Positions 1 through 44,769 of a DNA stretch of 44,773 bases are shown piece after piece. Position 1 is the first letter of the stretch, and every line of letters begins with the position of its first letter. The position numbers and the translations under genes are program-made. The notes below the pieces were generated by a model, which worked only from the letters and a program-made list of their open reading frames with translations, searched no databases and was not told the DNA's origin. The stretch is from Escherichia phage vB_EcoS_UTEC10, in sequence record PP291582.1; one strand, given 5' to 3'.

Positions 1-5
1 TGTGG

Positions 6-155
6 CTATTTTCGGCTTACCACCCATTGCAGTAATTGATTTATGCAATCTGCTTTCGAAAACCCGTTAAAGGACTTTGAGTAAACACCGTACATCACAG
101 TCAAAAACACCGTTCCGCGGTATTCCTCAAATAAAACATCATCAAACTCAATCAT
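6..155 (-). CDS. hypothetical small protein (49 aa)
   Basis: Manually translated ORF below the track cutoff (MIEFDDVLFEEYRG...); ATG overlaps the stop of the upstream gene in an ATGA motif at 152-155; GAGGAGAG RBS upstream. Confidence 0.35.
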   Translation of the reverse strand: MIEFDDVLFEEYRGTVFLTVMYGVYSKSFNGFSKADCINQLLQWVVSRK

Positions 156-388
156 TCCCCACTCTCCTCTTTAGCAATACGTTGCTCAGTTTTAGTGATG
201 CCCCTGCGCGTGAATAACACCGGGCTTGTCTTAACGTGCGTCATAAGACGGTTGTTATAAATTACGTGGCGCTCGCAGTCAACGTCTTTGCTGTACTTCG
301 CAATCGTCATTTCGTTGATGCCGGTTTGTCGGCATGTCTCCGCCATCGTGCCGTATTCTTTTATCAGGTTCGGAATGCTGGTAATCAT
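152..388 (-). CDS. small helix-turn-helix DNA-binding protein
   Basis: 78 aa track ORF; segment EYGTMAETCRQTGINEMTIAKYSKD resembles an HTH; tightly coupled to flanking small genes. Confidence 0.5.
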   Translation of the reverse strand: MITSIPNLIKEYGTMAETCRQTGINEMTIAKYSKDVDCERHVIYNNRLMTHVKTSPVLFTRRGITKTEQRIAKEESGE

Positions 389-582
389 TCTGCAGCAATC
401 TCCACTATGGATATAATTGCAACCTTCGAGTTGGGTGGCATACGCGAGGCCACATCTGATTCAATCGATCGAATATCCTTTACTGTAAGTTTTTCACCTT
501 TTTCTGGTGACGCCGTACAGTTGCCGAAGCCAGTTCCTGCGACGCTTGTCCAGGCATAACTGATAAAGAAACGTTTCATCAT
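385..582 (-). CDS. hypothetical small protein with N-terminal hydrophobic signal-like segment
   Basis: Track ORF 385..603 has a GTG at 603; internal ATG at 582 (MMKRFFISYAWTSVAGTGFGNC...) overlaps the stop of the upstream ORF (ATGA at 579-582). Confidence 0.4.
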   Translation of the reverse strand: MMKRFFISYAWTSVAGTGFGNCTASPEKGEKLTVKDIRSIESDVASRMPPNSKVAIISIVEIAAE

Positions 583-746
583 AAGAAATTCCTCGTTGTC
601 CACATCGCATTCGGATATTTGTTATCGCGGTCCTGCACTACGGCAATCATGTTACCCCGTTGCACCAGGCAGAAGTGCCGTTGCTGCTCGCCGTTGTAGC
701 GACGCCAGATTGCTTCTTCGATTGCTGCGTTGATGTCGCTGAACAT
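579..746 (-). CDS. hypothetical small protein (55 aa)
   Basis: Manually translated (MFSDINAAIEEAIWRRYNGEQQRHF...); stop overlaps the next start (ATGA); not in track because under 60 aa. Confidence 0.35.
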   Translation of the reverse strand: MFSDINAAIEEAIWRRYNGEQQRHFCLVQRGNMIAVVQDRDNKYPNAMWTTRNFL

Positions 747-833
747 TAGTATCTACCCCACAGAAAACCGACCAATAGCCCAATGAAGTAACTAAGACCA
801 ACCAGACTTATAACAACCTCAAGACTCATGCTC

Positions 834-1022
834 TCACCCCACTATCTCATCGCCAAGCCACGCCGTTTCTCGTATATCGTCTACTACACACGCAGCGTGC
901 TCACGGCTAATTGCAAAAATGTAGAAGCTGAACTTCTTCCCGTCGGCGTCGATATGGTTAACCGAGTAGGGTTTCCACAAGACGCCATCTATAACTACTG
1001 GCTCAGGCGCTTTCATACCCAT
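834..1022 (-). CDS. hypothetical protein
   Basis: Track ORF 834..1025; first ATG at 1022 (MGMKAPEPVV...); overlaps the end of the upstream gene. Confidence 0.45.
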   Translation of the reverse strand: MGMKAPEPVVIDGVLWKPYSVNHIDADGKKFSFYIFAISREHAACVVDDIRETAWLGDEIVG

Positions 1023-1200
1023 CACCGGAGGCTTTGTTAAGGTTGAAGCGGTTAATCAGTTCACGACGTGTCTCGTAAAGCGACTCTACCATTTGTTCAG
1101 CTACAGCGATTTTAGTATTCAGGACGTGCATCACGTGGCTGATGTCTACGCCGCCGTTAACAGCCTCTACCATCATCTTTTCGTATTCGCGGTCAGTCAT
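1003..1200 (-). CDS. hypothetical protein
   Basis: Track ORF 1003..1215; internal ATG at 1200 (MTDREYEKMMVE...) overlaps the stop of the upstream small ORF in GGAGAGAAGAAATGA. Confidence 0.45.
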   Translation of the reverse strand: MTDREYEKMMVEAVNGGVDISHVMHVLNTKIAVAEQMVESLYETRRELINRFNLNKASGDGYESA

Positions 1201-1352
1201 TTCTTCTCTCCCCACATGCGATTGAGATACTTGTTCTTGTCCGGCCCAGGGAAACTGTTACGTTTCATCAGTTCCTCGCGTGTAGGGAACGGGGTGTGAC
1301 TAACTTTGCGGCCTACTCGTAATGGTTGGCTTACTTGACCTTGTTCGCTCAT
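1197..1352 (-). CDS. hypothetical small protein (51 aa)
   Basis: Manually translated (MSEQGQVSQPLRVGRK...MWGEKK); start and stop both sit in copies of the 15-mer GGAGAGAAGAAATGA. Confidence 0.4.
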   Translation of the reverse strand: MSEQGQVSQPLRVGRKVSHTPFPTREELMKRNSFPGPDKNKYLNRMWGEKK

Positions 1353-1498
1353 TTCTTCTCTCCTGCGTAAGCTGCTTTCAGTGTTTGCATCGCAGCGAAC
1401 CAGAACGCGTCAGCGGGGATACTGCTACTAAGGTTACTAACGGCGATACGTGCCATCAGTTGTGCGTCTTTGAAGGCTTCGATATCTGTGATTTTCAT
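1349..1498 (-). CDS. hypothetical small protein (49 aa)
   Basis: Manually translated (MKITDIEAFKDAQLMARIAV...AAYAGEKK); first gene after the minus-strand promoter at 1532-1560; GGAG RBS upstream. Confidence 0.4.
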   Translation of the reverse strand: MKITDIEAFKDAQLMARIAVSNLSSSIPADAFWFAAMQTLKAAYAGEKK

Positions 1499-1531
1499 CT
1501 TCTCTACTCCGTTCTCGTTGTCGATGGAGTA

Positions 1532-1560
1532 AATATAATAGGGTCGTAGGTAATAGTCAA
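1532..1560 (-). promoter_or_regulatory. sigma70-like promoter (TTGACT-N17-TATATT) for the leftward small-gene operon
   Basis: Minus-strand reading gives TTGACT, a 17-nt spacer and TATATT; shares the TATAATAGGG core of the repeated promoter element. Confidence 0.4.
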
Positions 1561-1591
1561 CTAGTCATTGCAGAAAATAGATAAAAAAAAA

Positions 1592-1614
1592 TCCCGGCTG
1601 GGTCAGGGCCGGGA
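1592..1614 (-). terminator. Rho-independent terminator (minus strand)
   Basis: GC-rich hairpin CCCGGC/GCCGGG at 1593-1613 followed on the minus strand by a 9-nt T run (A run 1583-1591 on plus strand). Confidence 0.55.
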
Positions 1615-1697
1615 TAAAACTGGAGAGTAGAGGGATGGAACAGGAGGTGATTTAAGTATCGTCGGATTAGTCTCAGGTGTCAATTGGTAAAATAAAA

Positions 1698-1716
1698 CCC
1701 GGATTCGCGGTCCGGG
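1698..1716 (-). terminator. hairpin terminator downstream of endolysin
   Basis: CCCGGA-N7-TCCGGG hairpin flanked by a T-rich run on the minus strand. Confidence 0.4.
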
Positions 1717-1846
1717 TTTCGGTCATAAGCCCCTGAACCCTACGCAGTCTCCACCGCTTGGGCTGCTGCTTCAGGTTTACCAGGGCTTAGTGTGCAAGCA
1801 CAAACAGCGTGGAAGTAAGTTTACTAAACGCCTTCGTATTCGTCCA

Positions 1847-2347
1847 TCATTTAACAGCCCTCCCAATAGCCTCAGCCTCTTGCCACGGTTTACCGTCGAA
1901 CAGTGCAAGCCGTCCGGCGGTACGGCGGCGCAGGCCGAGTAACGGTTTACCGTTCTGGTTGATGAACAGCGCCAGCTTAGCCTGCAGCGTCGCAATATCT
2001 CCCCGCCGTAGCGCCTTACCTGTGCCTGTAGTAGCGGCAATCACACCTGCTCCGGCGTTATACACCAGGTCACACACCGCGTCAAACTGAGCCTGTGTCA
2101 GTGAATGGTGTGCTGCTGCGTCAACCGCAGCTACGGCCTTAGCCATATCGCGATTCAGTAACAGGAGGCCTTGTCCGGGGGTGATGGTCTTACCAGGTGT
2201 TACGTCAGGCCCGTAGTGACCATAGCCAATAGTAAGGTACTTCTCGTTCGGCGTAGCACGATACGCAGTTCCGCGGAATCCCTCGAACGCGGCAGTGAAA
2301 TGCAACCCATTATCTGAAATATTTCGAGACACGCTTATGTCCTCCAT
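1847..2347 (-). CDS. endolysin, T4-type lysozyme fold (GH24-like)
   Basis: FEGFRGTAYRATPNEKYLTIGYGH matches the catalytic Glu-Asp-Thr region of T4-type lysozymes; start uncertain (ATG 2347 or TTG 2383). Confidence 0.8.
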   Translation of the reverse strand: MEDISVSRNISDNGLHFTAAFEGFRGTAYRATPNEKYLTIGYGHYGPDVTPGKTITPGQGLLLLNRDMAKAVAAVDAAAHHSLTQAQFDAVCDLVYNAGAGVIAATTGTGKALRRGDIATLQAKLALFINQNGKPLLGLRRRTAGRLALFDGKPWQEAEAIGRAVK

Positions 2348-2582
2348 ACGACAGCCACGCCTGACGAATCTGACGCAGCGCAACTAATGTGATTAATGTC
2401 TCCGGCAACGTCGGGGACATGCTGCCCTGTAACAGGTGGATGCATCCGGCGACGCAGACGATAGCGGTCAGGATATAGAGCACCCGACCAAACAGCCCGT
2501 CGTCCACGCTGGGGTGGTACACATTAAACAGCGATGTGCCCCCGATTGCCAGCATACCGCCGAACCAGAATAGTTCATTCAT
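2310..2582 (-). CDS. two-TM membrane protein, holin/antiholin-like
   Basis: Internal ATG at 2582 with GAGGAGG RBS; 90 aa with two hydrophobic helices; sits between holin and endolysin. Confidence 0.45.
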   Translation of the reverse strand: MNELFWFGGMLAIGGTSLFNVYHPSVDDGLFGRVLYILTAIVCVAGCIHLLQGSMSPTLPETLITLVALRQIRQAWLSYGGHKRVSKYFR

Positions 2583-2883
2583 CTGTGCCTCCTCGACGTG
2601 CGATGTATTCTCCGGCGACGATACCAGAGAGACGGGAATAGATAGGCATCCAGAGAATGGCGATAATGAAGCCCAACCCGGCGATTTCACGGTCGCCCGT
2701 GATTCCAAACCATTGAGCTGCGAGAGGCGCGCCAAATACTGCGCAAGTGAAGCCGGTTGCAATAAAGCAGAAGCCGTCGATAGGGCCGGAAATAGCGGAC
2801 TTATGTTGTCGTAGTCCTATTACCCCTCCGGCTAGCGCGGCAGCGAGAAGCCACCCCGTCACTGTTTCAGTAAATTTATCCAA
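2575..2883 (-). CDS. holin (three predicted TM helices)
   Basis: 102 aa, three hydrophobic segments, charged C-terminus; TTG start with GGAGGA RBS; immediately upstream of the lysis genes. Confidence 0.55.
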   Translation of the reverse strand: MDKFTETVTGWLLAAALAGGVIGLRQHKSAISGPIDGFCFIATGFTCAVFGAPLAAQWFGITGDREIAGLGFIIAILWMPIYSRLSGIVAGEYIARRGGTDE

Positions 2884-2942
2884 GATGAATCCTCCAGGTG
2901 CGTATTAAGTATGCAGTAACTGGAGGATACCACGGGTAGGAA

Positions 2943-3383
2943 TTATCCTAATAGTTGTTTGGTAATAATCTTGCCGCCGGTGTTAACGTCGAACTTCGAT
3001 GCAACGGCTACGCCGCCATGCGCCGAATACCCACATTCCATAGCCGCTAATGCATATGGCGAGCCGGACCCAACGGCGGCAAAGCTGTCCGCAACCGTAA
3101 TAACCGAACTTAGTGCACAATCCCATGATTTATAGAACGCGACTTTGTACACCTTTTCTGTGTCTTTCACGAACACCAGGGCTTCGAAATCGAAGTCATA
3201 ATGTCTTGCCTGAAGGATATAAGGGTTGTCTATAAGCATAGTGCCAACTCCGGCATCACCCGCCACACCGATAATATAAGTATCATTCTCGTATATCTTT
3301 GTGTCAGTGTTGTAGCAGTTACTTCCGCACACAACGCGGGTATCACAGGCCATGGTCTTTCCATCGAATGCAATAGTAGTCAT
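2943..3383 (-). CDS. HslV/proteasome beta-subunit-like Ntn-hydrolase peptidase
   Basis: N-terminal MTTIAF (Thr nucleophile after Met), YIIGVAGDAGVGT and GSGSPYA motifs parallel HslV TTIVSV / VIAGFAGGTADA / GSGGPYA. Confidence 0.55.
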   Translation of the reverse strand: MTTIAFDGKTMACDTRVVCGSNCYNTDTKIYENDTYIIGVAGDAGVGTMLIDNPYILQARHYDFDFEALVFVKDTEKVYKVAFYKSWDCALSSVITVADSFAAVGSGSPYALAAMECGYSAHGGVAVASKFDVNTGGKIITKQLLG

Positions 3384-3673
3384 TTATGTCTCCAGATGTA
3401 TTGTCGTCTCTGCGGTTTCGTTGGAATATCATCGTACCCCCGCGATTTCCAGTAATTAAATAGCCGATTAGCGATAGCGGCGCGTTCCTGTGTTTTAAAC
3501 TCACCGAGATTCACGGCCTTCCCGTTCTGGAATCCGCAGGCGCGGACAGCTTTGCGTCTGGCCTGAATCTCTGGGTACAGCGCGTTACGGCGGCGCTTGT
3601 ATATCTGTATTTTAGCTCTCGGCGACAGCGGCGCGAGGCCGCTTCGTTTCAGGATGTCAGTTGCAAGAGACAT
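3380..3673 (-). CDS. hypothetical basic protein
   Basis: 97 aa track ORF, ATG start, ATGA overlap with the downstream gene. Confidence 0.5.
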   Translation of the reverse strand: MSLATDILKRSGLAPLSPRAKIQIYKRRRNALYPEIQARRKAVRACGFQNGKAVNLGEFKTQERAAIANRLFNYWKSRGYDDIPTKPQRRQYIWRHK

Positions 3674-3901
3674 TTATTGCCTCTCTATTTTAAAATGATA
3701 CATAATTCCGGATAACGCACCGATAGCCGTGTTGACATTGAAGTCTTTAATGTCGCAGAGGTTTCTAAGATACCGAACAGCATCAGCGAGTTCCGCGAAG
3801 TCTTCGTAACGTACCCAATCACCTTCGTCACTCTTAACCAGGTCGTTATACGGGTCGTATGGGTATTCACTAACATCTTTAAGCTCGTATCTCTGTACCA
3901 T
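3674..3901 (-). CDS. hypothetical protein, paralog A of a tandem pair
   Basis: Internal ATG at 3901 (MVQRYELKD...); shares VQRYE...LVKSDEGDW.YED with the upstream gene. Confidence 0.45.
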   Translation of the reverse strand: MVQRYELKDVSEYPYDPYNDLVKSDEGDWVRYEDFAELADAVRYLRNLCDIKDFNVNTAIGALSGIMYHFKIERQ

Positions 3902-4188
3902 CACTCCACCCCTTCCACATGTGTAACAGACCCGCAGTTCGCGCACTCGACGTAATCCGGGAACTGGTCTTTGTATTTCTGTAACTCGGCGTTTACTTCT
4001 GCCAGTCTTGACACAAGCCCCTCTATTTCCATATCCGTAGTGGTTATGTAGTCCTGGAAACTGTCGTCCAGTTCCTTGTAATCTTCGTAACTTATCCAGT
4101 CGCCTTCGTCACTCTTAACCAGCTCATGATACGGGTGGCACGAGTTAACACACACAGCTCTAAACTCATATCTCTGTACCACAATCAC
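3901..4188 (-). CDS. hypothetical protein, paralog B of a tandem pair
   Basis: 95 aa; N-terminal 40 aa paralogous to 3674..3901; C-terminus has a CxxC pair; GTG start overlapping the upstream stop. Confidence 0.45.
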   Translation of the reverse strand: MIVVQRYEFRAVCVNSCHPYHELVKSDEGDWISYEDYKELDDSFQDYITTTDMEIEGLVSRLAEVNAELQKYKDQFPDYVECANCGSVTHVEGVE

Positions 4189-4388
4189 TTCTCCTGTTTA
4201 CCAAGTCGCTTAGGTGAGCAGATAGCGCGTACCTCTGAATCGTTGGGCTTGTCGCCCTGAAACAGGAAGTGCGCGTTCTCTGCGGCGCGTGCCGCTGACT
4301 GGCACGCCTCCATCGAATAAAACGTTTCTGCTGCCGCTAGTTGCATCTGGCCTGCGGACAGTACCCAGATAAATAAGATGCTGGTCAT
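4185..4388 (-). CDS. small secreted protein (signal peptide predicted)
   Basis: Internal ATG at 4388 gives MTSILFIWVLSAGQMQLAAAETF..., a typical signal peptide with AxA site; ATGA overlap with the upstream gene. Confidence 0.45.
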   Translation of the reverse strand: MTSILFIWVLSAGQMQLAAAETFYSMEACQSAARAAENAHFLFQGDKPNDSEVRAICSPKRLGKQEK

Positions 4389-4882
4389 TTCTTTAACCCG
4401 CATTTAAGGCACATACAAGGAAACCCGACTCCGTAAAATTGCCATTCGTGCTCGCATTCCTGAGTATAGTTTTTCGGTTTATATTCCTCGTCATCCCACT
4501 CACGTTTACCACATTTAGAACAAAGCTCGCTACCAGGAACGTTGTTCGGATTGCCTTCACTGAGAAACAACCCAGGCATAATAATCCAAGAGTGCTCACA
4601 TTCCTGAGTATCTTCCTTACGGCAACCTGATTGCTCGGGTCCGTGTTCACCTACTACGTAGCTCACCCCTTTCGGCAGCGGGCCGCCGCGTTTTGTGACG
4701 CGGTTGAAATCCTCGTTCATCAGCTTTATTGTTTCCTGTAGCTCATCCACCAGCGCCGACGCGTCACGTAACTGATTCTTAAGTGACTGCACCTCATGCG
4801 CCAGGTCTTCGCACTGGTTGCTGTTTACCTGCTGCCGTAGTTGGTCAATCAGGTACTCGAATACTTCGTTTTTACTGTTCAT
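4385..4882 (-). CDS. coiled-coil / zinc-ribbon protein
   Basis: 165 aa; N-terminal heptad-like region, C-terminal Cys-rich region with repeated QECEH.W and CxxC motifs. Confidence 0.5.
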   Translation of the reverse strand: MNSKNEVFEYLIDQLRQQVNSNQCEDLAHEVQSLKNQLRDASALVDELQETIKLMNEDFNRVTKRGGPLPKGVSYVVGEHGPEQSGCRKEDTQECEHSWIIMPGLFLSEGNPNNVPGSELCSKCGKREWDDEEYKPKNYTQECEHEWQFYGVGFPCMCLKCGLKK

Positions 4883-5039
4883 TTTTCTGTTGCTCCCGGT
4901 CTCTTTTTAACATTTCATTGGCTTCCGCCAGTGCCTCTTTCCAGGTATCGAACTGGCGCCCATTGCACACCCACGGAGCACCTTTATAATTTCCTCTACG
5001 TCTTAAGTACCCGTATGATACCGCTTCTTTAAACGTCAT
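4872..5039 (-). CDS. hypothetical small protein
   Basis: Track ORF 4872..5054 (GTG); ATG at 5039 with GGAGAGA RBS; first gene downstream of the promoter at 5071-5099. Confidence 0.4.
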   Translation of the reverse strand: MTFKEAVSYGYLRRRGNYKGAPWVCNGRQFDTWKEALAEANEMLKRDREQQKNEQ

Positions 5040-5070
5040 CTTCCATCTCTCCACTCGTCGGTGTAAATGA

Positions 5071-5099
5071 ATAGTAGCCTATTCTATCTTAGTGTGCAA
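5071..5099 (-). promoter_or_regulatory. promoter TTGCAC-N17-TACTAT with embedded AATAG-N4-CTATT inverted repeat
   Basis: Minus-strand reading of 5071-5099; inverted repeat at 5070-5083 lies in the spacer. Confidence 0.5.
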
Positions 5100-5106
5100 G
5101 TAAATT

Positions 5107-5280
5107 TTATTGGTGTGTTATAGAGTCGATGAACGCCAGTAACTCGCGCTCCGCTTCTGCTTCTCTTTCTTCAAGCAACCAGGTAGCGGATTCCTCTGTT
5201 GCCGTTGCTATATCGGTTTTCACATCAATCATCGTGTCTATTAACGCGATTAATCGTTCGGCCTGTTCTTTAGTAATCAT
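5107..5280 (-). CDS. hypothetical small acidic protein (57 aa)
   Basis: Manually translated (MITKEQAERLIALIDTMIDVKTD...); AGGAGA RBS 7 nt upstream; opposite-strand track ORF 5129..5341 is low-complexity. Confidence 0.4.
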   Translation of the reverse strand: MITKEQAERLIALIDTMIDVKTDIATATEESATWLLEEREAEAERELLAFIDSITHQ

Positions 5281-5415
5281 TGTTGCATCTCCTGCAATAA
5301 TCGCTTCTATTGTTGCGTTCGGTGAAAGTGTCGCTTTTTGACGACACTAATCTAAAGTTGTACGCTGCTGTGTAGCAGCGTAAGTCACTCAGTCAAATAG
5401 TAACCTATTGACCTG

Positions 5416-5616
5416 TTACACCAGTTTCGGCGGTTTAGGCAATTTCCTCCAGTGCGTTATATCCTCGTTGTCTATGACAGAGTTGAATTCATCCCAACTA
5501 TCCCACTCATCCGAATCATCATCGAACCATTTAATCTCAACCTCTCCCCCATCAGTCACAAGTACATGAGAGAAAGGAGCGGGCATCTGCTCACTGCACT
5601 TAATCCACTTACCCAT
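5416..5616 (-). CDS. DUF551-like phage protein
   Basis: MGKWIKCSEQMP...THWRKLPKPP pattern typical of small DUF551 phage proteins. Confidence 0.45.
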   Translation of the reverse strand: MGKWIKCSEQMPAPFSHVLVTDGGEVEIKWFDDDSDEWDSWDEFNSVIDNEDITHWRKLPKPPKLV

Positions 5617-5766
5617 ATCTCACCTCGTATTCATCACAGCTTGCACACCAGCTTTCCACGCCCGCCACGCTAGACGCGTCTTAATGTTCAGGTACTCTTT
5701 CTTTGAACCTTTGTTAACCGGCAGACCCTCGACGACAGCCCACCGTTCGAATGCTTCTCTCACAAC

Positions 5767-6033
5767 TCACCCCATCTTCTCTTTAACGTGCACCCAAAAC
5801 TCACCACAGTACCAGCACCACATAAGATTAGGCGTCTCGCGCACCCAACCGTAATCCTTGCGGGCACGAATCGGGATAATACCCTTAGTGAAATAATAAC
5901 CTGTTCGCAGAAACTCAGGGTCGCGAGTCGCAGTGCGCCACATGTTATAAAACTGCTCCAGCCCGGAACCCCGGCGCATGACCCGTATTTTATGGTTATA
6001 TTCCGCTACTGTTTTCAGTTCAGTGTTATTCAT
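5767..6033 (-). CDS. hypothetical protein
   Basis: 88 aa track ORF; ATG start; ATGA overlap with the upstream gene stop. Confidence 0.5.
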   Translation of the reverse strand: MNNTELKTVAEYNHKIRVMRRGSGLEQFYNMWRTATRDPEFLRTGYYFTKGIIPIRARKDYGWVRETPNLMWCWYCGEFWVHVKEKMG

Positions 6034-6284
6034 TTACGGCAACCTCCCTCAGAGTCGTCGGCACGGGCATCATGATTCGATGCCGTTGTGAATGATGCGG
6101 AAGCAACATCGAAGAAACTAACGGTTAAAGTCTCGCCCACAGCGTCCTCTAAATCCCATTCATCACCGTCTTCATCTAAAACGTATCGACGGCCGTCGTA
6201 ATATACTCCCGACGAATACTTGTTACCTTTTACAAACCAATGCTGCACATCTGGACCAGATTCAATACAAATTAATTCTCCCAT
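6030..6284 (-). CDS. hypothetical protein
   Basis: Track ORF 6030..6287 (GTG); ATG at 6284. Confidence 0.45.
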   Translation of the reverse strand: MGELICIESGPDVQHWFVKGNKYSSGVYYDGRRYVLDEDGDEWDLEDAVGETLTVSFFDVASASFTTASNHDARADDSEGGCRK

Positions 6285-6469
6285 CACTTCGCCCCTTTGA
6301 ATTTAAAATTGTTGCCGATGAGTGTTAAATCACATTTACGGAGCAGTCCCTTACCAAACCCAGCTACGCTATTAACCTCAACAAAACCGAACCACATTAG
6401 CTTCGACTCTATTACAGTGAATAAATCGCCGCTAAATTTATCCCTAACCAACTGACCTTTCTTAAACAT
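6284..6469 (-). CDS. hypothetical protein
   Basis: Track ORF 6284..6478 (GTG); ATG at 6469 with AAGGGGTGAGG RBS. Confidence 0.45.
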   Translation of the reverse strand: MFKKGQLVRDKFSGDLFTVIESKLMWFGFVEVNSVAGFGKGLLRKCDLTLIGNNFKFKGAK

Positions 6470-6487
6470 AACCCTCACCCCTTTGTC

Positions 6488-6706
6488 TTATTTAAAGTAG
6501 ATAGCGAATTTCTTGTAACCAGCAGGCTCGTTACGAAGCCCTTTACCGTTGGCGAAACGTTGTACGTTGTTAAAATCATTTTCATCCATTCCGTCGGTGT
6601 CGAACGTAAAGAAGCTGCGTTTGTTCCCGATAATTACGCGCTCTGAAATATCGATGCCGTAAACTTCTTTGATTGCGGAAACCACGCTTGCGGTCGCTTT
6701 GTTCAT
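6488..6706 (-). CDS. hypothetical protein, first gene of a leftward early operon
   Basis: 72 aa track ORF; ATG with AAGGAAT RBS; directly downstream of the promoter at 6741-6769. Confidence 0.5.
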   Translation of the reverse strand: MNKATASVVSAIKEVYGIDISERVIIGNKRSFFTFDTDGMDENDFNNVQRFANGKGLRNEPAGYKKFAIYFK

Positions 6707-6740
6707 TTCTGAATTCCTTATGTCTCGTTTCGATAAGTGA

Positions 6741-6769
6741 ATAGTATCCTATTATGTTGGGGTGTGCAA
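6741..6769 (-). promoter_or_regulatory. promoter TTGCAC-N17-TACTAT with embedded AATAG-N4-CTATT inverted repeat
   Basis: Same architecture as the 5071-5099 promoter; inverted repeat at 6740-6753. Confidence 0.5.
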
Positions 6770-7142
6770 GAGAATAGTTACGTTGCCGTTGTGATTCTTC
6801 AGGTAGGGTTGTGCCTTTATTCTTATTACTTGGTAACTAAAGGGCAGGCCCTAAGCCTGCCCAATAATCGTTACATTTTTACGGTTGCGAATCTACGGCA
6901 CTTTAAGAAAATCAGATACTTAAGATATATTCCGCCGATGGGAATAGAGCTTGCCCAGGGCAACCGGAGATACTTAGGAAGGAAAGTTACGATAATTCGA
7001 ATGTTCAGTAAACTGCCGCCTAACACTTCGCGTTGGGCGCTCGTTTTCGGCGGGTTTTACAAGGTGAACAGGAATCAAAGTAACTAAGATATAGAAGCAC
7101 CTTAAACGAAGATTTTCTTAATGTCAATAGGTGCGATTATGT

Positions 7143-7171
7143 TTGATTTCCCATTATTCGCAATGTATACT
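7143..7171 (+). promoter_or_regulatory. sigma70-like promoter TTGATT-N17-TATACT for the rightward operon
   Basis: Near-consensus hexamers with 17-nt spacer in the 460-bp divergent intergenic region; lacks the AATAG/CTATT repeat. Confidence 0.5.
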
Positions 7172-7203
7172 TGGTTTCGTTAACTGATAATGGGGGTTTG
7201 AGA

Positions 7204-7374
7204 ATGACACAGAATGAAGTAGCCGAGCGTATTGGGGTTACCCGTCGCACGCTGAATAACTGGTTAAAGAGTGGGAAGTTCCCGGATTGTTGTATCCGTA
7301 TTATGGGCCGCCGGCAGCCGGGTACTTTCGACCCGGAGAAAGTGGAAGCGTGGATTAAGGAGAATGTAAAATGA
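7204..7374 (+). CDS. AlpA/Xis-like HTH transcriptional regulator
   Basis: Internal ATG of track ORF 7171..7374; MTQNEVAERIGVTRRTLNNWLKSGKFP resembles AlpA-family HTH proteins. Confidence 0.5.
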   Translation: MTQNEVAERIGVTRRTLNNWLKSGKFPDCCIRIMGRRQPGTFDPEKVEAWIKENVK

Positions 7375-7604
7375 CCGAGTTCCAGTCCCGCGTATTTACG
7401 GCAGTCGTTTCATTAACCTGTAAAAAAGGGTCGTGCAGCGTTATGGACTTGCGCCGTAGTTATTTTAGGTACTATAGTTCCGCCATTATTGAAGGGTCGT
7501 TGAAGGTACTGGTTAAATCTGGTGTCGTGAAAAATGTTGGCGGGAAATATAGTGCTGTTGCCGAAGTTCGCGGAATGACCGCTACTTTAGAAGACCTGGA
7601 ATAA
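7371..7604 (+). CDS. hypothetical protein with C-terminal LEDLE tail
   Basis: 77 aa; ATGA overlap with the upstream gene; C-terminus ...ATLEDLE. Confidence 0.45.
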   Translation: MTEFQSRVFTAVVSLTCKKGSCSVMDLRRSYFRYYSSAIIEGSLKVLVKSGVVKNVGGKYSAVAEVRGMTATLEDLE

Positions 7605-44651: not shown

Positions 44652-44749
44652 AGAATCCCCTTGCATATGCGTCTGACCATCAGAGCGCACCAGACGCGCC
44701 CTACGCGTCTAAAGGGATTATATAAGGGGATTGGGCGGGATGTACAGAA

Positions 44750-44769
44750 AAGCCCTCCGTAGAGGGCTT
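44750..44769 (-). terminator. hairpin terminator at the right end of the window
   Basis: AAGCCCTC-CGTA-GAGGGCTT followed by TTTTCT on the minus strand; would end the leftward early operon if the genome is circular/permuted. Confidence 0.4.

What the first reader, a model, noticed from the sequence alone, without database searches (positions are those of the whole stretch)
6..6706. Left arm is a dense chain of small genes joined by overlapping stop/start codons, including unannotated sub-60-aa ORFs
Most junctions overlap as ATGA or GTGA (for example 152-155, 579-582, 1197-1200, 1349-1352, 3380-3383, 3899-3903, 4385-4388, 6030-6033). Hand translation finds candidate genes the 60-aa track misses at 6-155, 579-746, 1197-1352, 1349-1498 and 5107-5280, plus less certain ones at 747-829 (27-aa hydrophobic peptide) and 5620-5763. 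Such early small proteins are the usual reservoir of host-takeover and anti-defence factors.
Basis: seen in the sequence. Interest (0 to 1): 0.4.

Follow-up and report, generated by a model that had tools for sequence, protein, structure and literature searches.

The report
Small-gene operons of a Kagunavirus phage
The region is the ordinary, densely packed accessory and lysis gene block of a Kagunavirus coliphage; nearly all its tiny genes are already in databases, and the one new item is a conserved 27-codon membrane-peptide gene that is absent from every public annotation checked, probably because it is shorter than gene-caller length floors.

Summary
From 6706 down to 6 there are 26 back-to-back genes (median 66.5 aa, 90% coding). 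All eight quoted junctions are ATGA or TGATG. Of 25 junctions, 16 overlap and 9 are ATGA/GTGA. There are 14 coupled junctions against 0.7 in shuffles and 0 on the other strand.

The window is a Kagunavirus, 97% identical to phage CR01. Six of the seven "missed" ORFs belong to PHROG or Pfam families, and the five looked up are already called proteins. All seven have pN/pS of 0.04-0.37.

The 27-aa ORF (746-829) is new. It occurs in 53 phage records, was unannotated in all 12 checked, and is absent from a 15-billion-protein collection. It is under clear coding selection (pN/pS 0.15; variable codon positions 13/5/23) and its stop always overlaps the next gene's ATG.

The "early host-takeover/anti-defence" reading is only partly supported. 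The chain contains the holin-holin-endolysin cassette, an HslV-like peptidase and nin-like genes. Conserved promoter-like sites divide it into several units. No protein matches a known anti-defence factor.

The 348-nt gap at 1499-1846 holds a conserved promoter, a ~70-nt CU-rich RNA, a terminator and a second promoter. Overall ordinary; modest interest.

The parts
6488..6706 (-). g01, 72 aa, first gene of the chain
   Evidence: ATG with AGGA SD. phrog_7673, E 3e-27. pN/pS 0.12.
6284..6469 (-). g02, 61 aa
   Evidence: ATG preceded by GGGGTGAGG. phrog_12538.
6030..6284 (-). g03, 84 aa. Start is ATG 6284 (TGATG overlap) or GTG 6287 (GTGA overlap).
5767..6033 (-). g04, 88 aa, ATGA overlap with g03
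   Evidence: GGAGG SD. The exact protein is in the collection. pN/pS 0.18.
5620..5763 (-). g05, 47 aa, GTG start (a reader candidate rated 'less certain')
   Evidence: phrog_15836, E 4e-35. Intact in 15 loci, pN/pS 0.24. Annotated in CR01 and Bas73. GGGGTGAG SD.
5416..5616 (-). g06, 66 aa, DUF551
   Evidence: Pfam PF04448, 49.2 bits against a cut-off of 22.
5281..5415 (-). Structured intergenic region with the palindrome AATAGGTTACTATT (5396-5409) and two further strong hairpins
   Evidence: MFE -40.6 kcal/mol for 135 nt; conserved at 72-98% in relatives. Palindrome mapped.
5107..5280 (-). g07, 57 aa, DUF7438 (reader candidate)
   Evidence: Pfam PF24219, 38.3 bits against a cut-off of 25. phrog_653. 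AGGAG SD. Cluster members are annotated in GenBank. pN/pS 0.21.
5071..5099 (-). Promoter-like site TTGCAC-17-TACTAT with the palindrome AATAGGCTACTATT, upstream of g08
   Evidence: Same layout as the site upstream of g01.
4872..5039 (-). g08, 55 aa (ATG start)
   Evidence: GGAG SD. The exact protein is annotated in phage 22664BS2. No family hit.
4385..4882 (-). g09, 165 aa, with a repeated ECEH(S/E)W...C..CG cysteine motif seen by eye
   Evidence: phrog_6094, E 1e-53. The motif is a by-eye reading of the translation.
4185..4388 (-). g10, 67 aa, with an N-terminal signal-peptide-like segment; ATGA overlap and no SD
   Evidence: phrog_3766. Found in 22 loci, pN/pS 0.20. The signal peptide is my reading of the sequence.
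3901..4188 (-). g11, 95 aa, paralog of g12
   Evidence: BLASTP g11 against g12: 53% identity over 43 aa, E 2e-15.
3674..3901 (-). g12, 75 aa, TGATG overlap with g11
3380..3673 (-). g13, 97 aa
   Evidence: phrog_9632, E 1.5e-54.
2943..3383 (-). g14, HslV-family peptidase-like protein, 146 aa
   Evidence: phrog_1040, E 4e-34. Pfam Proteasome, 22.9 bits against a cut-off of 22.4.
2889..2928 (-). Hairpin AUCCUCCAG/CUGGAGGAU that pairs the SD of the first holin gene
   Evidence: The 59-nt gap is 93-100% identical in every Kagunavirus locus it aligns to. The same hairpin is predicted in all 11 variants.
2575..2883 (-). g15, holin, 102 aa, conserved TTG start
   Evidence: phrog_2359. TTG conserved.
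2310..2582 (-). g16, second holin, 90 aa, ATGAATGA overlap
   Evidence: phrog_2508. AGGAGG SD.
1847..2332 (-). g17, endolysin (phage lysozyme), 161 aa
   Evidence: Pfam PF00959, 95.4 bits.
1689..1717 (-). Terminator-like hairpin plus T-rich tail after the endolysin
   Evidence: Read from the sequence. Present only in CR01-like relatives.
1655..1683 (-). P1, TTGACA-17-GATACT
   Evidence: 10/12 match. Both hexamers invariant in 19 loci.
1583..1651 (-). Predicted ~70-nt CU-rich RNA ending in an intrinsic terminator (hairpin 1615-1591, T9 at 1591-1583)
   Evidence: The stem is kept through a compensatory change, CCCGGC/GCCGGG to CCCGGTAA/TTACCGGG. Non-triplet indels exclude a coding role. No Rfam family.
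1532..1560 (-). P2, TTGACT-17-TATATT, promoter of the distal unit g18-g26
   Evidence: 10/12 match. Hexamers invariant. Shares CCCTATTATATT with three sites in the structural-gene region.
1349..1498 (-). g18, 49 aa (reader candidate)
   Evidence: phrog_2180, E 4e-26. 20 loci, pN/pS 0.12. Exact protein found on 200 contigs.
1197..1352 (-). g19, 51 aa, DUF2737 (reader candidate)
   Evidence: Pfam PF10930, 38.9 bits against a cut-off of 25. phrog_4684, E 7e-34. pN/pS 0.23.
1003..1200 (-). g20, 65 aa
   Evidence: phrog_1402. ATGA overlap.
834..1022 (-). g21, 62 aa, 20-nt overlap, no SD
   Evidence: phrog_10509, E 4e-35. pN/pS 0.05.
746..829 (-). g22, 27-aa hydrophobic peptide MSLEVVISLVGLSYFIGLLVGFLWGRY (reader candidate rated 'less certain'); not annotated in any record checked
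   Evidence: Present in 53 phage records. No CDS in 12 records examined. Exact peptide absent from the protein collection. 12 distinct 27-codon nucleotide versions, all intact, plus a 22-codon copy with an in-frame 15-nt deletion. Variable columns by codon position 13/5/23; pN/pS 0.15 against 1.18 and 2.78 in the other frames. GGGGTGAG-type SD in 7 of 10 copies and a TAATG/TGATG stop-start overlap in all.
579..746 (-). g23, 55 aa (reader candidate); its start overlaps the g22 stop by 1 nt and it has no strong SD of its own
   Evidence: phrog_5407, E 2e-25. pN/pS 0.04. Annotated in CR01.
385..582 (-). g24, 65 aa
   Evidence: No PHROG or Pfam hit. tblastn homologs at 43-50% identity in Schulenburg, JSSK01 and Salmonella phages. 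Exact protein in the collection.
152..388 (-). g25, 78 aa, NinH-like
   Evidence: phrog_268, E 2e-30. Pfam NinH 26.0 bits, below the cut-off of 29.8.
6..155 (-). g26, 49 aa (reader candidate), last gene of the chain
   Evidence: AGGAG SD. phrog_16162, E 2e-7. Annotated in CR01, M01 and phage 26. pN/pS 0.37 from 4 loci.
44744..44768 (-). Terminator-like hairpin downstream of g26, across the window boundary, followed by the terminase genes
   Evidence: Sequence read. The terminase genes at 44651-44109 and 44109-42859 match CR01 at 98-100%.
6741..6769 (-). Promoter-like site TTGCAC-17-TACTAT with the palindrome AATAGGATACTATT, 33 nt upstream of the g01 ATG

Best explanation
Window 6-6706 (minus strand) is the accessory-plus-lysis arm of a Kagunavirus (Guernseyvirinae) coliphage. 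It holds 26 real protein genes.

The genes form tight blocks in which the stop codon of one gene overlaps or abuts the start codon of the next. This saves space and most likely couples translation: a ribosome terminating at one gene re-initiates at the next. That would matter most for the three genes with no SD of their own (g10, g21, g23).

The blocks are not one string. Conserved intergenic elements divide them into at least four units:
- a palindrome-containing promoter-like site, then g01-g06;
- a structured spacer, then g07;
- a second promoter-like site, then g08-g14 and, after a hairpin that pairs the holin's SD, holin-holin-endolysin;
- promoter P1 with a short terminated CU-rich RNA, then promoter P2, g18-g26 and a hairpin, followed by the terminase genes.

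The seventh, the 27-codon ORF at 746-829, encodes a single-helix membrane peptide with a G-x3-G-x3-G motif. It was not annotated in any record checked, probably because at 84 nt it falls below the length floor of standard gene callers. It most likely acts in the inner membrane and also delivers ribosomes to the gene that starts at its stop codon.

Shown: the gene structure, conservation, selection and sequence signals. Inferred: translational coupling, promoter use, expression timing, and the location and role of the peptide.
For: Identity: 97% identical to Escherichia phage CR01 over 78% of the region, with 428 Guernseyvirinae-type records matching. Relatives have the same gene order.

Junctions: (14 coupled junctions against 0.7 in shuffles and 0 on the other strand). 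An SD precedes 13 of the 16 overlapping starts.

Families.

Public status: 9 of 10 small proteins are exact database entries, and only the 27-aa peptide is missing.

The 27-aa ORF. The shortest CDSs annotated in Bas73 are 90-96 nt, consistent with a 90-nt floor. The Prodigal default of 90 nt is my own knowledge.

Transcription units: P1 and P2 are invariant in 19 loci. The palindrome AATAG-N4-CTATT has 14 copies against 1.2 expected, all intergenic and embedded in promoter-like sites. The same motif was reported as a repeated 'phage promoter' in Kagunavirus fBC-Eco01 (PMC9825357).

Timing: the NinH gene is listed among the middle genes in Kagunavirus K1B4 (PMC12645636).
Against: No expression data exist for this phage. 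Promoters, terminators, coupling and the small RNA are all sequence predictions.

Some start codons are ambiguous (g03, g11, g17).

Several genes rest on few independent relatives: g07 has 3 loci, g26 has 4, and g08 and g12 have none in my locus set.

Two of the five scorable control ORFs gave pN/pS of 0.37-0.59, so the ratio alone is not decisive for individual short ORFs.

For the 27-aa peptide:
- One lineage (L014/L059) has Arg and Thr in the middle of the helix.
- Another (L005/L051) has lost 5 codons.
- Some relatives lack the ORF entirely, so it is dispensable.
- The sequences compared are related, not independent.
- The antisense frame that shares its third codon positions also scores low (0.26), although no ORF of 20 aa or more spans 746-829 on the plus strand.
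Confidence: 0.85

Rival explanations
1. One reading: the chain is an early operon whose small proteins mainly shut down host functions or counter bacterial defence systems.
For: The promoter-proximal genes g01-g13 lie next to the divergent control region. They are mosaic between relatives, as accessory genes usually are. Most have no known function, so such roles cannot be excluded.
Against: The chain includes the lysis cassette and nin-like genes. No protein matches a characterised anti-defence or takeover factor in PHROGs, Pfam or PDB sequences. Only 4 of 57 genes were early in a Kagunavirus time course, and NinH was listed among the middle genes. Kagunaviruses are highly sensitive to restriction-modification systems and variably sensitive to Old. 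Most genes are under ordinary purifying selection rather than showing arms-race-like divergence.
Confidence: 0.2
2. The 27-codon ORF is only a 'landing strip'. Its translation brings ribosomes to the SD-less downstream gene, and the peptide itself has no function.
For: Its stop overlaps the downstream ATG in all ten copies, even where the downstream gene differs (168-, 171- and 282-nt genes). The downstream start lacks a good SD. In relatives without the ORF the flanks abut.
Against: A pure coupling leader would not conserve its amino-acid sequence. Here 23 of 27 third positions vary against 5 second positions, pN/pS is 0.15, and substitutions are conservative (L/V/I/M, G/A/S, R/K).
Confidence: 0.1
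3. Some or all of the sub-60-aa ORFs are chance ORFs in non-coding spacer DNA.
For: Short ORFs arise easily by chance. One search lists 121 ORFs of at least 20 aa in 7.5 kb, most of them spurious.
Against: They lie in register in a single-strand chain, have SD motifs, belong to families, stay intact across up to 20 loci, and have low pN/pS, whereas three of the five scorable opposite-strand controls sit near 1.1-1.3 and most controls acquire stops in homologs.
Confidence: 0.03

Closest known systems
nin region of lambdoid phages (lambda ninA-ninI; P22 ninA-ninZ)
   Same: It is a string of very small genes with overlapping stop and start codons and mostly unknown function. The window has a DUF2737 protein (g19) and a NinH-like protein (g25), and relatives carry a 'NinZ-like' gene.
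   Different: In lambdoid phages the nin genes lie between the replication genes and the late-gene antiterminator Q. Here they lie after the lysis cassette and before the terminase, behind their own promoter. The NinH match is below Pfam's cut-off. No Q-like gene was found.
Annotated accessory/lysis arm of Kagunavirus genomes (CR01, Bas70-76, Golestan, phage 26, K1G relatives)
   Same: The gene order and most of the genes are the same. The holin-holin-endolysin cassette, the HslV-like peptidase and the small-gene strings are all annotated there.
   Different: The gene content is mosaic. For example, g08, g12 and g24 are rare, and the window lacks the 300-nt gene of Bas73 and phage 26. None of the 12 annotations checked includes the 27-codon ORF.
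Small bacterial and phage membrane proteins under 50 aa that are missed by annotation (for example E. coli AcrZ, MgtS and KdpF, or type I toxins such as TisB and DinQ); catalogues of overlooked small ORFs (PMC11364881, bioRxiv 10.1101/494179)
   Same: A single hydrophobic helix, fewer than 30 codons, missed by standard callers and detectable by comparative genomics.
   Different: There is no sequence similarity to any of these. The only Pfam hit is EpuA at 15.7 bits against a cut-off of 27. Function is untested. The named examples are recalled from my own knowledge.
Translational control of T4 lysozyme (gene e) by an SD-sequestering hairpin in early transcripts (own knowledge)
   Same: The SD of a lysis gene (here the first holin, g15) is paired in a conserved 9-bp stem in the transcript coming from upstream.
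   Different: In T4, late transcripts start inside the hairpin and free the SD. I found no convincing promoter inside this hairpin. The gene here is a holin with a TTG start, not the lysozyme.
Hfq-type trans-acting small RNAs and the lambda PR'-6S RNA-tR' unit (own knowledge)
   Same: A strong promoter, a short transcript and an intrinsic terminator with a U-tract, just upstream of genes that lead into the terminase.
   Different: There is no Rfam family, no specific target and no Q-like protein. A second promoter follows the terminator.

Membership tests
Kagunavirus (Guernseyvirinae) genome | High nucleotide identity and shared gene order with classified members | tested here: met
   97% identity to CR01, and 88-94% to many Kagunavirus records. 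Same gene order as Bas73 and phage 26.
Translationally coupled polycistronic gene array | Same-strand genes whose stop and start codons overlap (ATGA, TAATG, TGATG), more often than chance | tested here: met
   16 of 25 junctions overlap. 14 coupled junctions against 0.7 in shuffles and 0 on the other strand.
Translationally coupled polycistronic gene array | Downstream translation depends on upstream translation | not testable with these tools
   This needs polar stop-codon mutants with reporter fusions. Three downstream genes lack an SD (g10, g21, g23), which is suggestive only.
Pfam DUF2737 (g19), DUF7438 (g07), DUF551 (g06) | Score above Pfam's gathering threshold | tested here: met
   38.9 against 25; 38.3 against 25; 49.2 against 22.
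Pfam Phage_NinH (g25) | Score above Pfam's gathering threshold | tested here: not met
   26.0 bits against a cut-off of 29.8. It does match phrog_268 at E 2e-30, and relatives call it NinH-like.
Lambdoid nin region | Position between the replication genes and the Q antiterminator / late promoter | tested here: not met
   The cluster lies between the endolysin and the terminase. No Q-like gene; the 'antiterminator' of phage 26 has no Pfam support and no homolog in the window.
Known anti-defence or host-takeover proteins | Sequence similarity to a characterised member | tested here: not met
   No such PHROG or Pfam annotation for any of the 26 proteins. No PDB sequence relative for g01, g09, g13, g21 or g23. 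No dedicated anti-defence library was available, and fold-level similarity was not tested.
Early gene class | Transcript peak early in infection | not testable with these tools
   The only evidence is indirect. In Kagunavirus K1B4, 4 of 57 genes are early and NinH is listed among the middle genes. Gene-by-gene correspondence to this window was not established.
Small single-pass membrane protein (g22) | One hydrophobic segment long enough to span a membrane, conserved as protein | tested here: met
   About 20 consecutive apolar or small residues (V5-W24) with charged ends, read from the sequence. Coding selection shown. No transmembrane predictor was run, and membrane location is untested.
Trans-acting small RNA (1651-1583) | Own promoter, non-coding transcript, intrinsic terminator, all conserved | tested here: met
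   Non-triplet indels exclude a coding role.
Trans-acting small RNA (1651-1583) | A specific complementary target | tested here: inconclusive
   The best duplex with a phage translation start region is -29.8 kcal/mol, but 14% of shuffled RNAs do as well. Host targets were not searched.
T4 gene e-type translational control | SD sequestered in a stem, plus an alternative transcript start inside the stem-loop | tested here: inconclusive
   The SD is in a 9-bp stem, invariant in 11 variants. The loop has a -10-like ATACTTAAT but no -35, by my reading. Because the stem is invariant, no covariation test is possible.

The most novel reading that the evidence does not exclude
This ordinary-looking gene string may hide unannotated regulators that together set lysis timing and the switch to late expression:
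- a 27-aa glycine-zipper membrane peptide (746-829);
- a conserved ~70-nt CU-rich small RNA with anti-SD-like motifs (1651-1583);
- an invariant hairpin that masks the SD of the first holin (2928-2889).

For example, the small RNA or the hairpin might hold back holin translation, and the peptide might modulate holin triggering or a host membrane protein.
Probability: 0.12. Interest if true: 0.55.

Novelty: new member of a known kind. Interest (0 to 1): 0.25.

Why it matters
The main result is a clean negative. The striking chain of overlapping mini-genes is the normal architecture of this phage group, and nearly all of it is already catalogued, so it needs no special follow-up.

Three practical points remain:
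- A conserved 27-codon membrane-peptide gene is missing from every Kagunavirus annotation examined, probably because it is shorter than the usual gene-caller length floor. Kagunaviruses are being adopted as small synthetic-biology and therapy chassis, so complete gene lists matter.
- At least two public CDS calls in this region look wrong: the plus-strand CDS in CR01 opposite g24, and the 116-aa CDS over the divergent control region in CR01 and Bas73.
- The non-coding parts of the region (the promoter-embedded palindrome, the small RNA unit, the holin SD hairpin and the conserved control block) are better leads to the unstudied regulation of these phages than the small proteins are.

Tried and rejected
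I used exact look-up, DNA search and a degenerate DNA pattern scan instead.
- The Rfam scan of 1-7400 at E up to 1 gave only two sub-threshold hits to the terminator hairpin. The tRNA scan found none.
- The sRNA target search against 95 phage translation start regions did not beat shuffled RNAs, so I make no claim of a specific target. This includes the holin and g18 start regions that looked complementary by eye.
- The lambda Q / 6S RNA analogy is rejected as a membership claim. The 'early transcription antiterminator' of phage 26 has no Pfam support and no homolog in the window.
- The 26-aa ORF at 1603-1683 over the sRNA is rejected as a gene. It starts in the -35 hexamer, has no SD, and relatives carry 2-nt and 4-nt indels.
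- PDB sequence searches for g01, g09, g13, g21 and g23 found nothing meaningful. Names given by other annotators, such as 'internal head protein' (phrog_7673), 'head protein' and 'host nuclease inhibitor', have no support here and I did not adopt them.
- Spanin candidates within the chain are rejected. The Rz-like spanins are annotated in the head module of Bas73, and the weak Rz-like PHROG hit of g09 (E 0.0017) is only to a coiled-coil segment.
- I did not run structure prediction. The peptide is below the 30-aa minimum, and the other small proteins would not have changed the verdict.

Full report
**What the window is.** The first 7.2 kb match 428 phage records. The best is Escherichia phage CR01 (Guernseyvirinae) at 97% identity over 78% of the query, followed by many Kagunavirus isolates at 88-94%. 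The genome map of a well-annotated relative, Bas73, has three parts: terminase and structural genes on one strand; replication genes on the other; and, starting at a divergent control region, a long string of small genes that includes the lysis cassette and runs on the same strand back into the terminase. The window is that genome in the opposite orientation. The terminase genes lie at the other end of the window (44651-44109 and 44109-42859, minus strand).

**Checking the observation.** I chose start codons using SD motifs and the annotation of relatives. That gave 26 genes covering 90% of 6-6706, with a median of 66.5 aa and eight below 60 aa.
- Of 25 junctions, 9 overlap by 4 nt, 3 by 1 nt, and 4 by 8-23 nt.
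- Five more are 0-18 nt apart.
- Four are real gaps of 59, 67, 135 and 348 nt.

So most junctions do overlap, but only 9 of 25 as ATGA or GTGA. The pattern is far from chance. I counted 14 stop/start-coupled pairs of ORFs of at least 40 aa on the minus strand, none on the plus strand, and 0.7 on average in dinucleotide shuffles. It is also the densest block of the genome.

**Are the small ORFs genes?** Yes.
- Six of the seven match existing PHROG families, some very strongly: 5620-5763 with phrog_15836 (E 4e-35), 1197-1352 with phrog_4684 (E 7e-34), 1349-1498 with phrog_2180 (E 4e-26), 579-746 with phrog_5407 (E 2e-25), 5107-5280 with phrog_653 (E 9e-12), and 6-155 with phrog_16162 (E 2e-7).
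- Two pass Pfam thresholds: DUF2737 for 1197-1352 and DUF7438 for 5107-5280.
- Against 33 related loci they stay intact. Their pooled pN/pS values are 0.04-0.37. Three of the five scorable opposite-strand control ORFs give 1.1-1.3, and most controls pick up stops in homologs.
- Two controls gave 0.37-0.59, so the ratio is supportive rather than decisive for any single short ORF.
- The five candidates I looked up exactly are all already called proteins in the public collection. GenBank accessions are listed for four of those exact sequences; for 5107-5280 only other members of its cluster carry them.
- CR01 annotates the equivalents of four of the seven.

They are therefore "unannotated" only with respect to a 60-aa ORF track.

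**The one new gene.** The 27-codon ORF at 746-829 has no PHROG family and no meaningful Pfam hit. The exact peptide is absent from the 15-billion-protein collection. The 84-nt stretch occurs in 53 phage records at identities down to 74%. None of the 12 records I examined annotates it: CR01, Bas71, Bas73, Bas75, SZH-1, EM1, EC3-1, NTEC3, fEg-Eco19, phiWAO78-1, Golestan and phiSD1. The shortest CDSs annotated in Bas73 are 90, 93 and 96 nt. That fits a 90-nt floor in gene callers, which is Prodigal's default as far as I know, and an 84-nt ORF falls below it.

The comparative evidence for coding is strong.
- All ten copies first examined are intact. A GGGGTGAG-type SD is conserved in seven of them, and a weaker G-rich stretch lies further upstream in the three whose upstream neighbour differs.
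- In every copy the stop overlaps the ATG of the next gene (TAATG or TGATG), even though that gene differs between phages (168-, 171- or 282-nt genes).
- One lineage has an in-frame 15-nt deletion.
- A pattern scan of viral contigs added more variants.
- Over 12 distinct nucleotide versions, 13, 5 and 23 columns vary at codon positions 1, 2 and 3. pN/pS is 0.15 in frame against 1.18 and 2.78 in the other two same-strand frames.
- The antisense frame that shares its third codon positions also scores low (0.26), but no ORF of 20 aa or more spans 746-829 on the plus strand.

Substitutions are conservative (L/V/I/M, G/A/S, R/K). The peptide, MSLEVVISLVGLSYFIGLLVGFLWGRY, is one hydrophobic helix with a G17-x3-G21-x3-G25 motif and a basic C-terminal end.

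The ORF is optional. In some relatives the flanks abut without it. One lineage carries Arg and Thr inside the helix.

I infer a small inner-membrane peptide that also hands ribosomes to the SD-poor downstream gene. Its actual role is unknown.

**What the chain is made of.** It is not a uniform set of early genes.
- It contains an HslV-family peptidase-like gene (2943-3383), two holins (2575-2883 and 2310-2582) and a lysozyme-type endolysin (1847-2332).
- The distal genes resemble lambdoid nin genes: DUF2737, a NinH-like protein below Pfam's cut-off, and 'NinZ-like' in relatives.
- g06 is DUF551.
- g11 and g12 are paralogs.
- g10 has a signal-peptide-like N-terminus, by my reading.
- g24 (385-582) is supported by protein-level homologs at 43-50% identity, whereas CR01 annotates the opposite strand there.

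None of the 26 proteins matches a characterised host-takeover or anti-defence protein. Five PDB sequence searches were empty.

**The chain is several units.** The four gaps are conserved and carry signals.

(i) The 348-nt gap at 1499-1846, read on the minus strand, holds:
- a terminator-like hairpin after the endolysin, found only in CR01-like phages;
- promoter P1 (TTGACA-17-GATACT, 1683-1655);
- a ~70-nt CU-rich transcript ending in a strong hairpin plus T9 (to 1583);
- promoter P2 (TTGACT-17-TATATT, 1560-1532), followed by g18.

The last 185 nt are conserved in every relative, including Jersey-like loci. Both hexamer pairs are invariant. The terminator stem is kept through a compensatory change, and non-triplet indels rule out coding. 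Rfam has no family for it. Its pairing with phage translation start regions is no better than that of shuffled RNAs. No Q-type antiterminator is present.

(ii) The 59-nt gap before the first holin is essentially invariant. It folds so that the holin's GGAGG is paired in a 9-bp stem, and the holin's TTG start is conserved. This is reminiscent of T4 gene e, but I found no internal promoter.

(iii) The palindrome AATAG-N4-CTATT occurs 14 times at up to one mismatch, against 1.2 expected, and always between genes.
- In the replication module it sits in the spacer of near-consensus promoters (TTGAC[A/G]-17/18-TATAGT).
- In the structural module it sits next to a good -10 with a weak -35.
- In the chain it appears as TTGCAC-17-TACTAT upstream of g01 (6769-6741) and of g08 (5099-5071), and once in the structured 135-nt spacer (5396-5409).
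- P2 shares its CCCTATTATATT core with the three structural-module sites.
- The same motif was reported as a repeated "phage promoter" in Kagunavirus fBC-Eco01 (PMC9825357).

(iv) A hairpin follows g26 at the window boundary.

I therefore read the region as at least four transcription units. This is inference from sequence.

A temporal RNA-seq study of Kagunavirus K1B4 classed only 4 of 57 genes as early, one of them an HTH gene, and lists the NinH gene among the middle genes (PMC12645636). I did not map its genes one-to-one onto this window. The BASEL study reports Kagunavirus isolates as highly sensitive to restriction-modification systems and variably sensitive to Old. That argues against a rich anti-restriction arsenal, although it says nothing about other defences. 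The "reservoir of host-takeover and anti-defence factors" idea is thus untested for g01-g13 and unlikely for the lysis and nin-like parts.

**Verdict.** The small ORFs are genuine, but six of the seven are already known families of unknown function. The new element is a conserved 27-codon membrane-peptide gene that is missing from every annotation examined. I score interest at 0.25. The most interesting leads are the non-coding ones: the small RNA unit, the holin SD hairpin, the promoter-embedded palindrome and the conserved control block next to the chain.

Noticed in passing
window 1583-1683 (minus strand), inside the 1499-1846 gap: A conserved unit consisting of promoter P1 (TTGACA-17-GATACT), a ~70-nt CU-rich transcript with anti-SD-like CACCUCCU and CUCUCC motifs, and a strong intrinsic terminator. 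It is followed at once by a second invariant promoter, P2 (1560-1532). The unit is conserved in 19 loci across Kagunavirus and Jersey-like phages, with a compensatory change in the terminator stem. It matches no Rfam family. No specific target was found.
   Followed up: partly
window 2889-2928 (minus strand): A nearly invariant hairpin (AUCCUCCAG/CUGGAGGAU) pairs the Shine-Dalgarno sequence of the first holin gene, which has a conserved TTG start. This may be translational control of lysis timing. The stem is invariant, so no covariation test is possible.
   Followed up: partly
window 5070, 5396, 6740, 10212, 12331, 16070, 28987, 38653, 40825 (perfect copies); 1552, 10167, 20357, 21828, 38562 (one mismatch): The palindrome AATAG-N4-CTATT has 14 copies against 1.2 expected. 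In the 11 copies I examined in context it is intergenic and embedded in the spacer or -10 region of promoter-like sites, in three flavours (replication, structural and accessory modules). It is probably an operator for a phage regulator. The HTH_17 protein at 7204-7374 is a candidate, by inference only. Others reported the motif as a PHIRE 'phage promoter'.
   Followed up: partly
window 6737-7087 (plus strand) and 6776-6990: The 116-aa ORF annotated as a hypothetical protein in CR01 and Bas73 shows no coding signal: pN/pS is 0.93, indels are not multiples of three, and homologs carry 29 in-frame stops. The underlying ~215-nt block is nevertheless 82-90% identical (88-90% in most) even in Jersey-like loci whose proteins are only ~58% identical. 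It contains a hairpin (6862-6842) with a compensatory change and repeated TAAGTATCT and GTAAC motifs. It is a conserved non-coding element, possibly an origin, an operator cluster or a non-coding RNA, in the divergent control region.
   Followed up: partly
window 385-582 (minus) versus 407-559 (plus): CR01 annotates a plus-strand CDS here. The minus-strand ORF g24 is the one supported, by protein-level homologs at 43-50% identity in other phages and by its place in the overlapping chain. The last 12 residues of g24 differ from CR01, which suggests a recombination joint near 388-424.
   Followed up: partly
window 3674-4188 (minus strand): g11 and g12 are tandem paralogs: 53% identity over 43 aa, with a shared VQRYE...LVKSDEGDW motif. 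They are joined by a 1-nt TGATG overlap.
   Followed up: yes
window 5281-5415 (minus strand): A 135-nt spacer with three strong hairpins (MFE -40.6 kcal/mol), none followed by a T-run, conserved at 72-98% across relatives. One hairpin has an A-rich loop loosely reminiscent of a boxB element. Its function is unknown.
   Followed up: no
L004, L009, L003, L006, L013 relative to window 746-829: The 27-codon ORF behaves as an optional cassette. In some relatives the flanks abut and in others a different gene sits there, while the conserved flanks (about 30 nt on each side) persist. This suggests recombination at conserved gene boundaries.
   Followed up: partly
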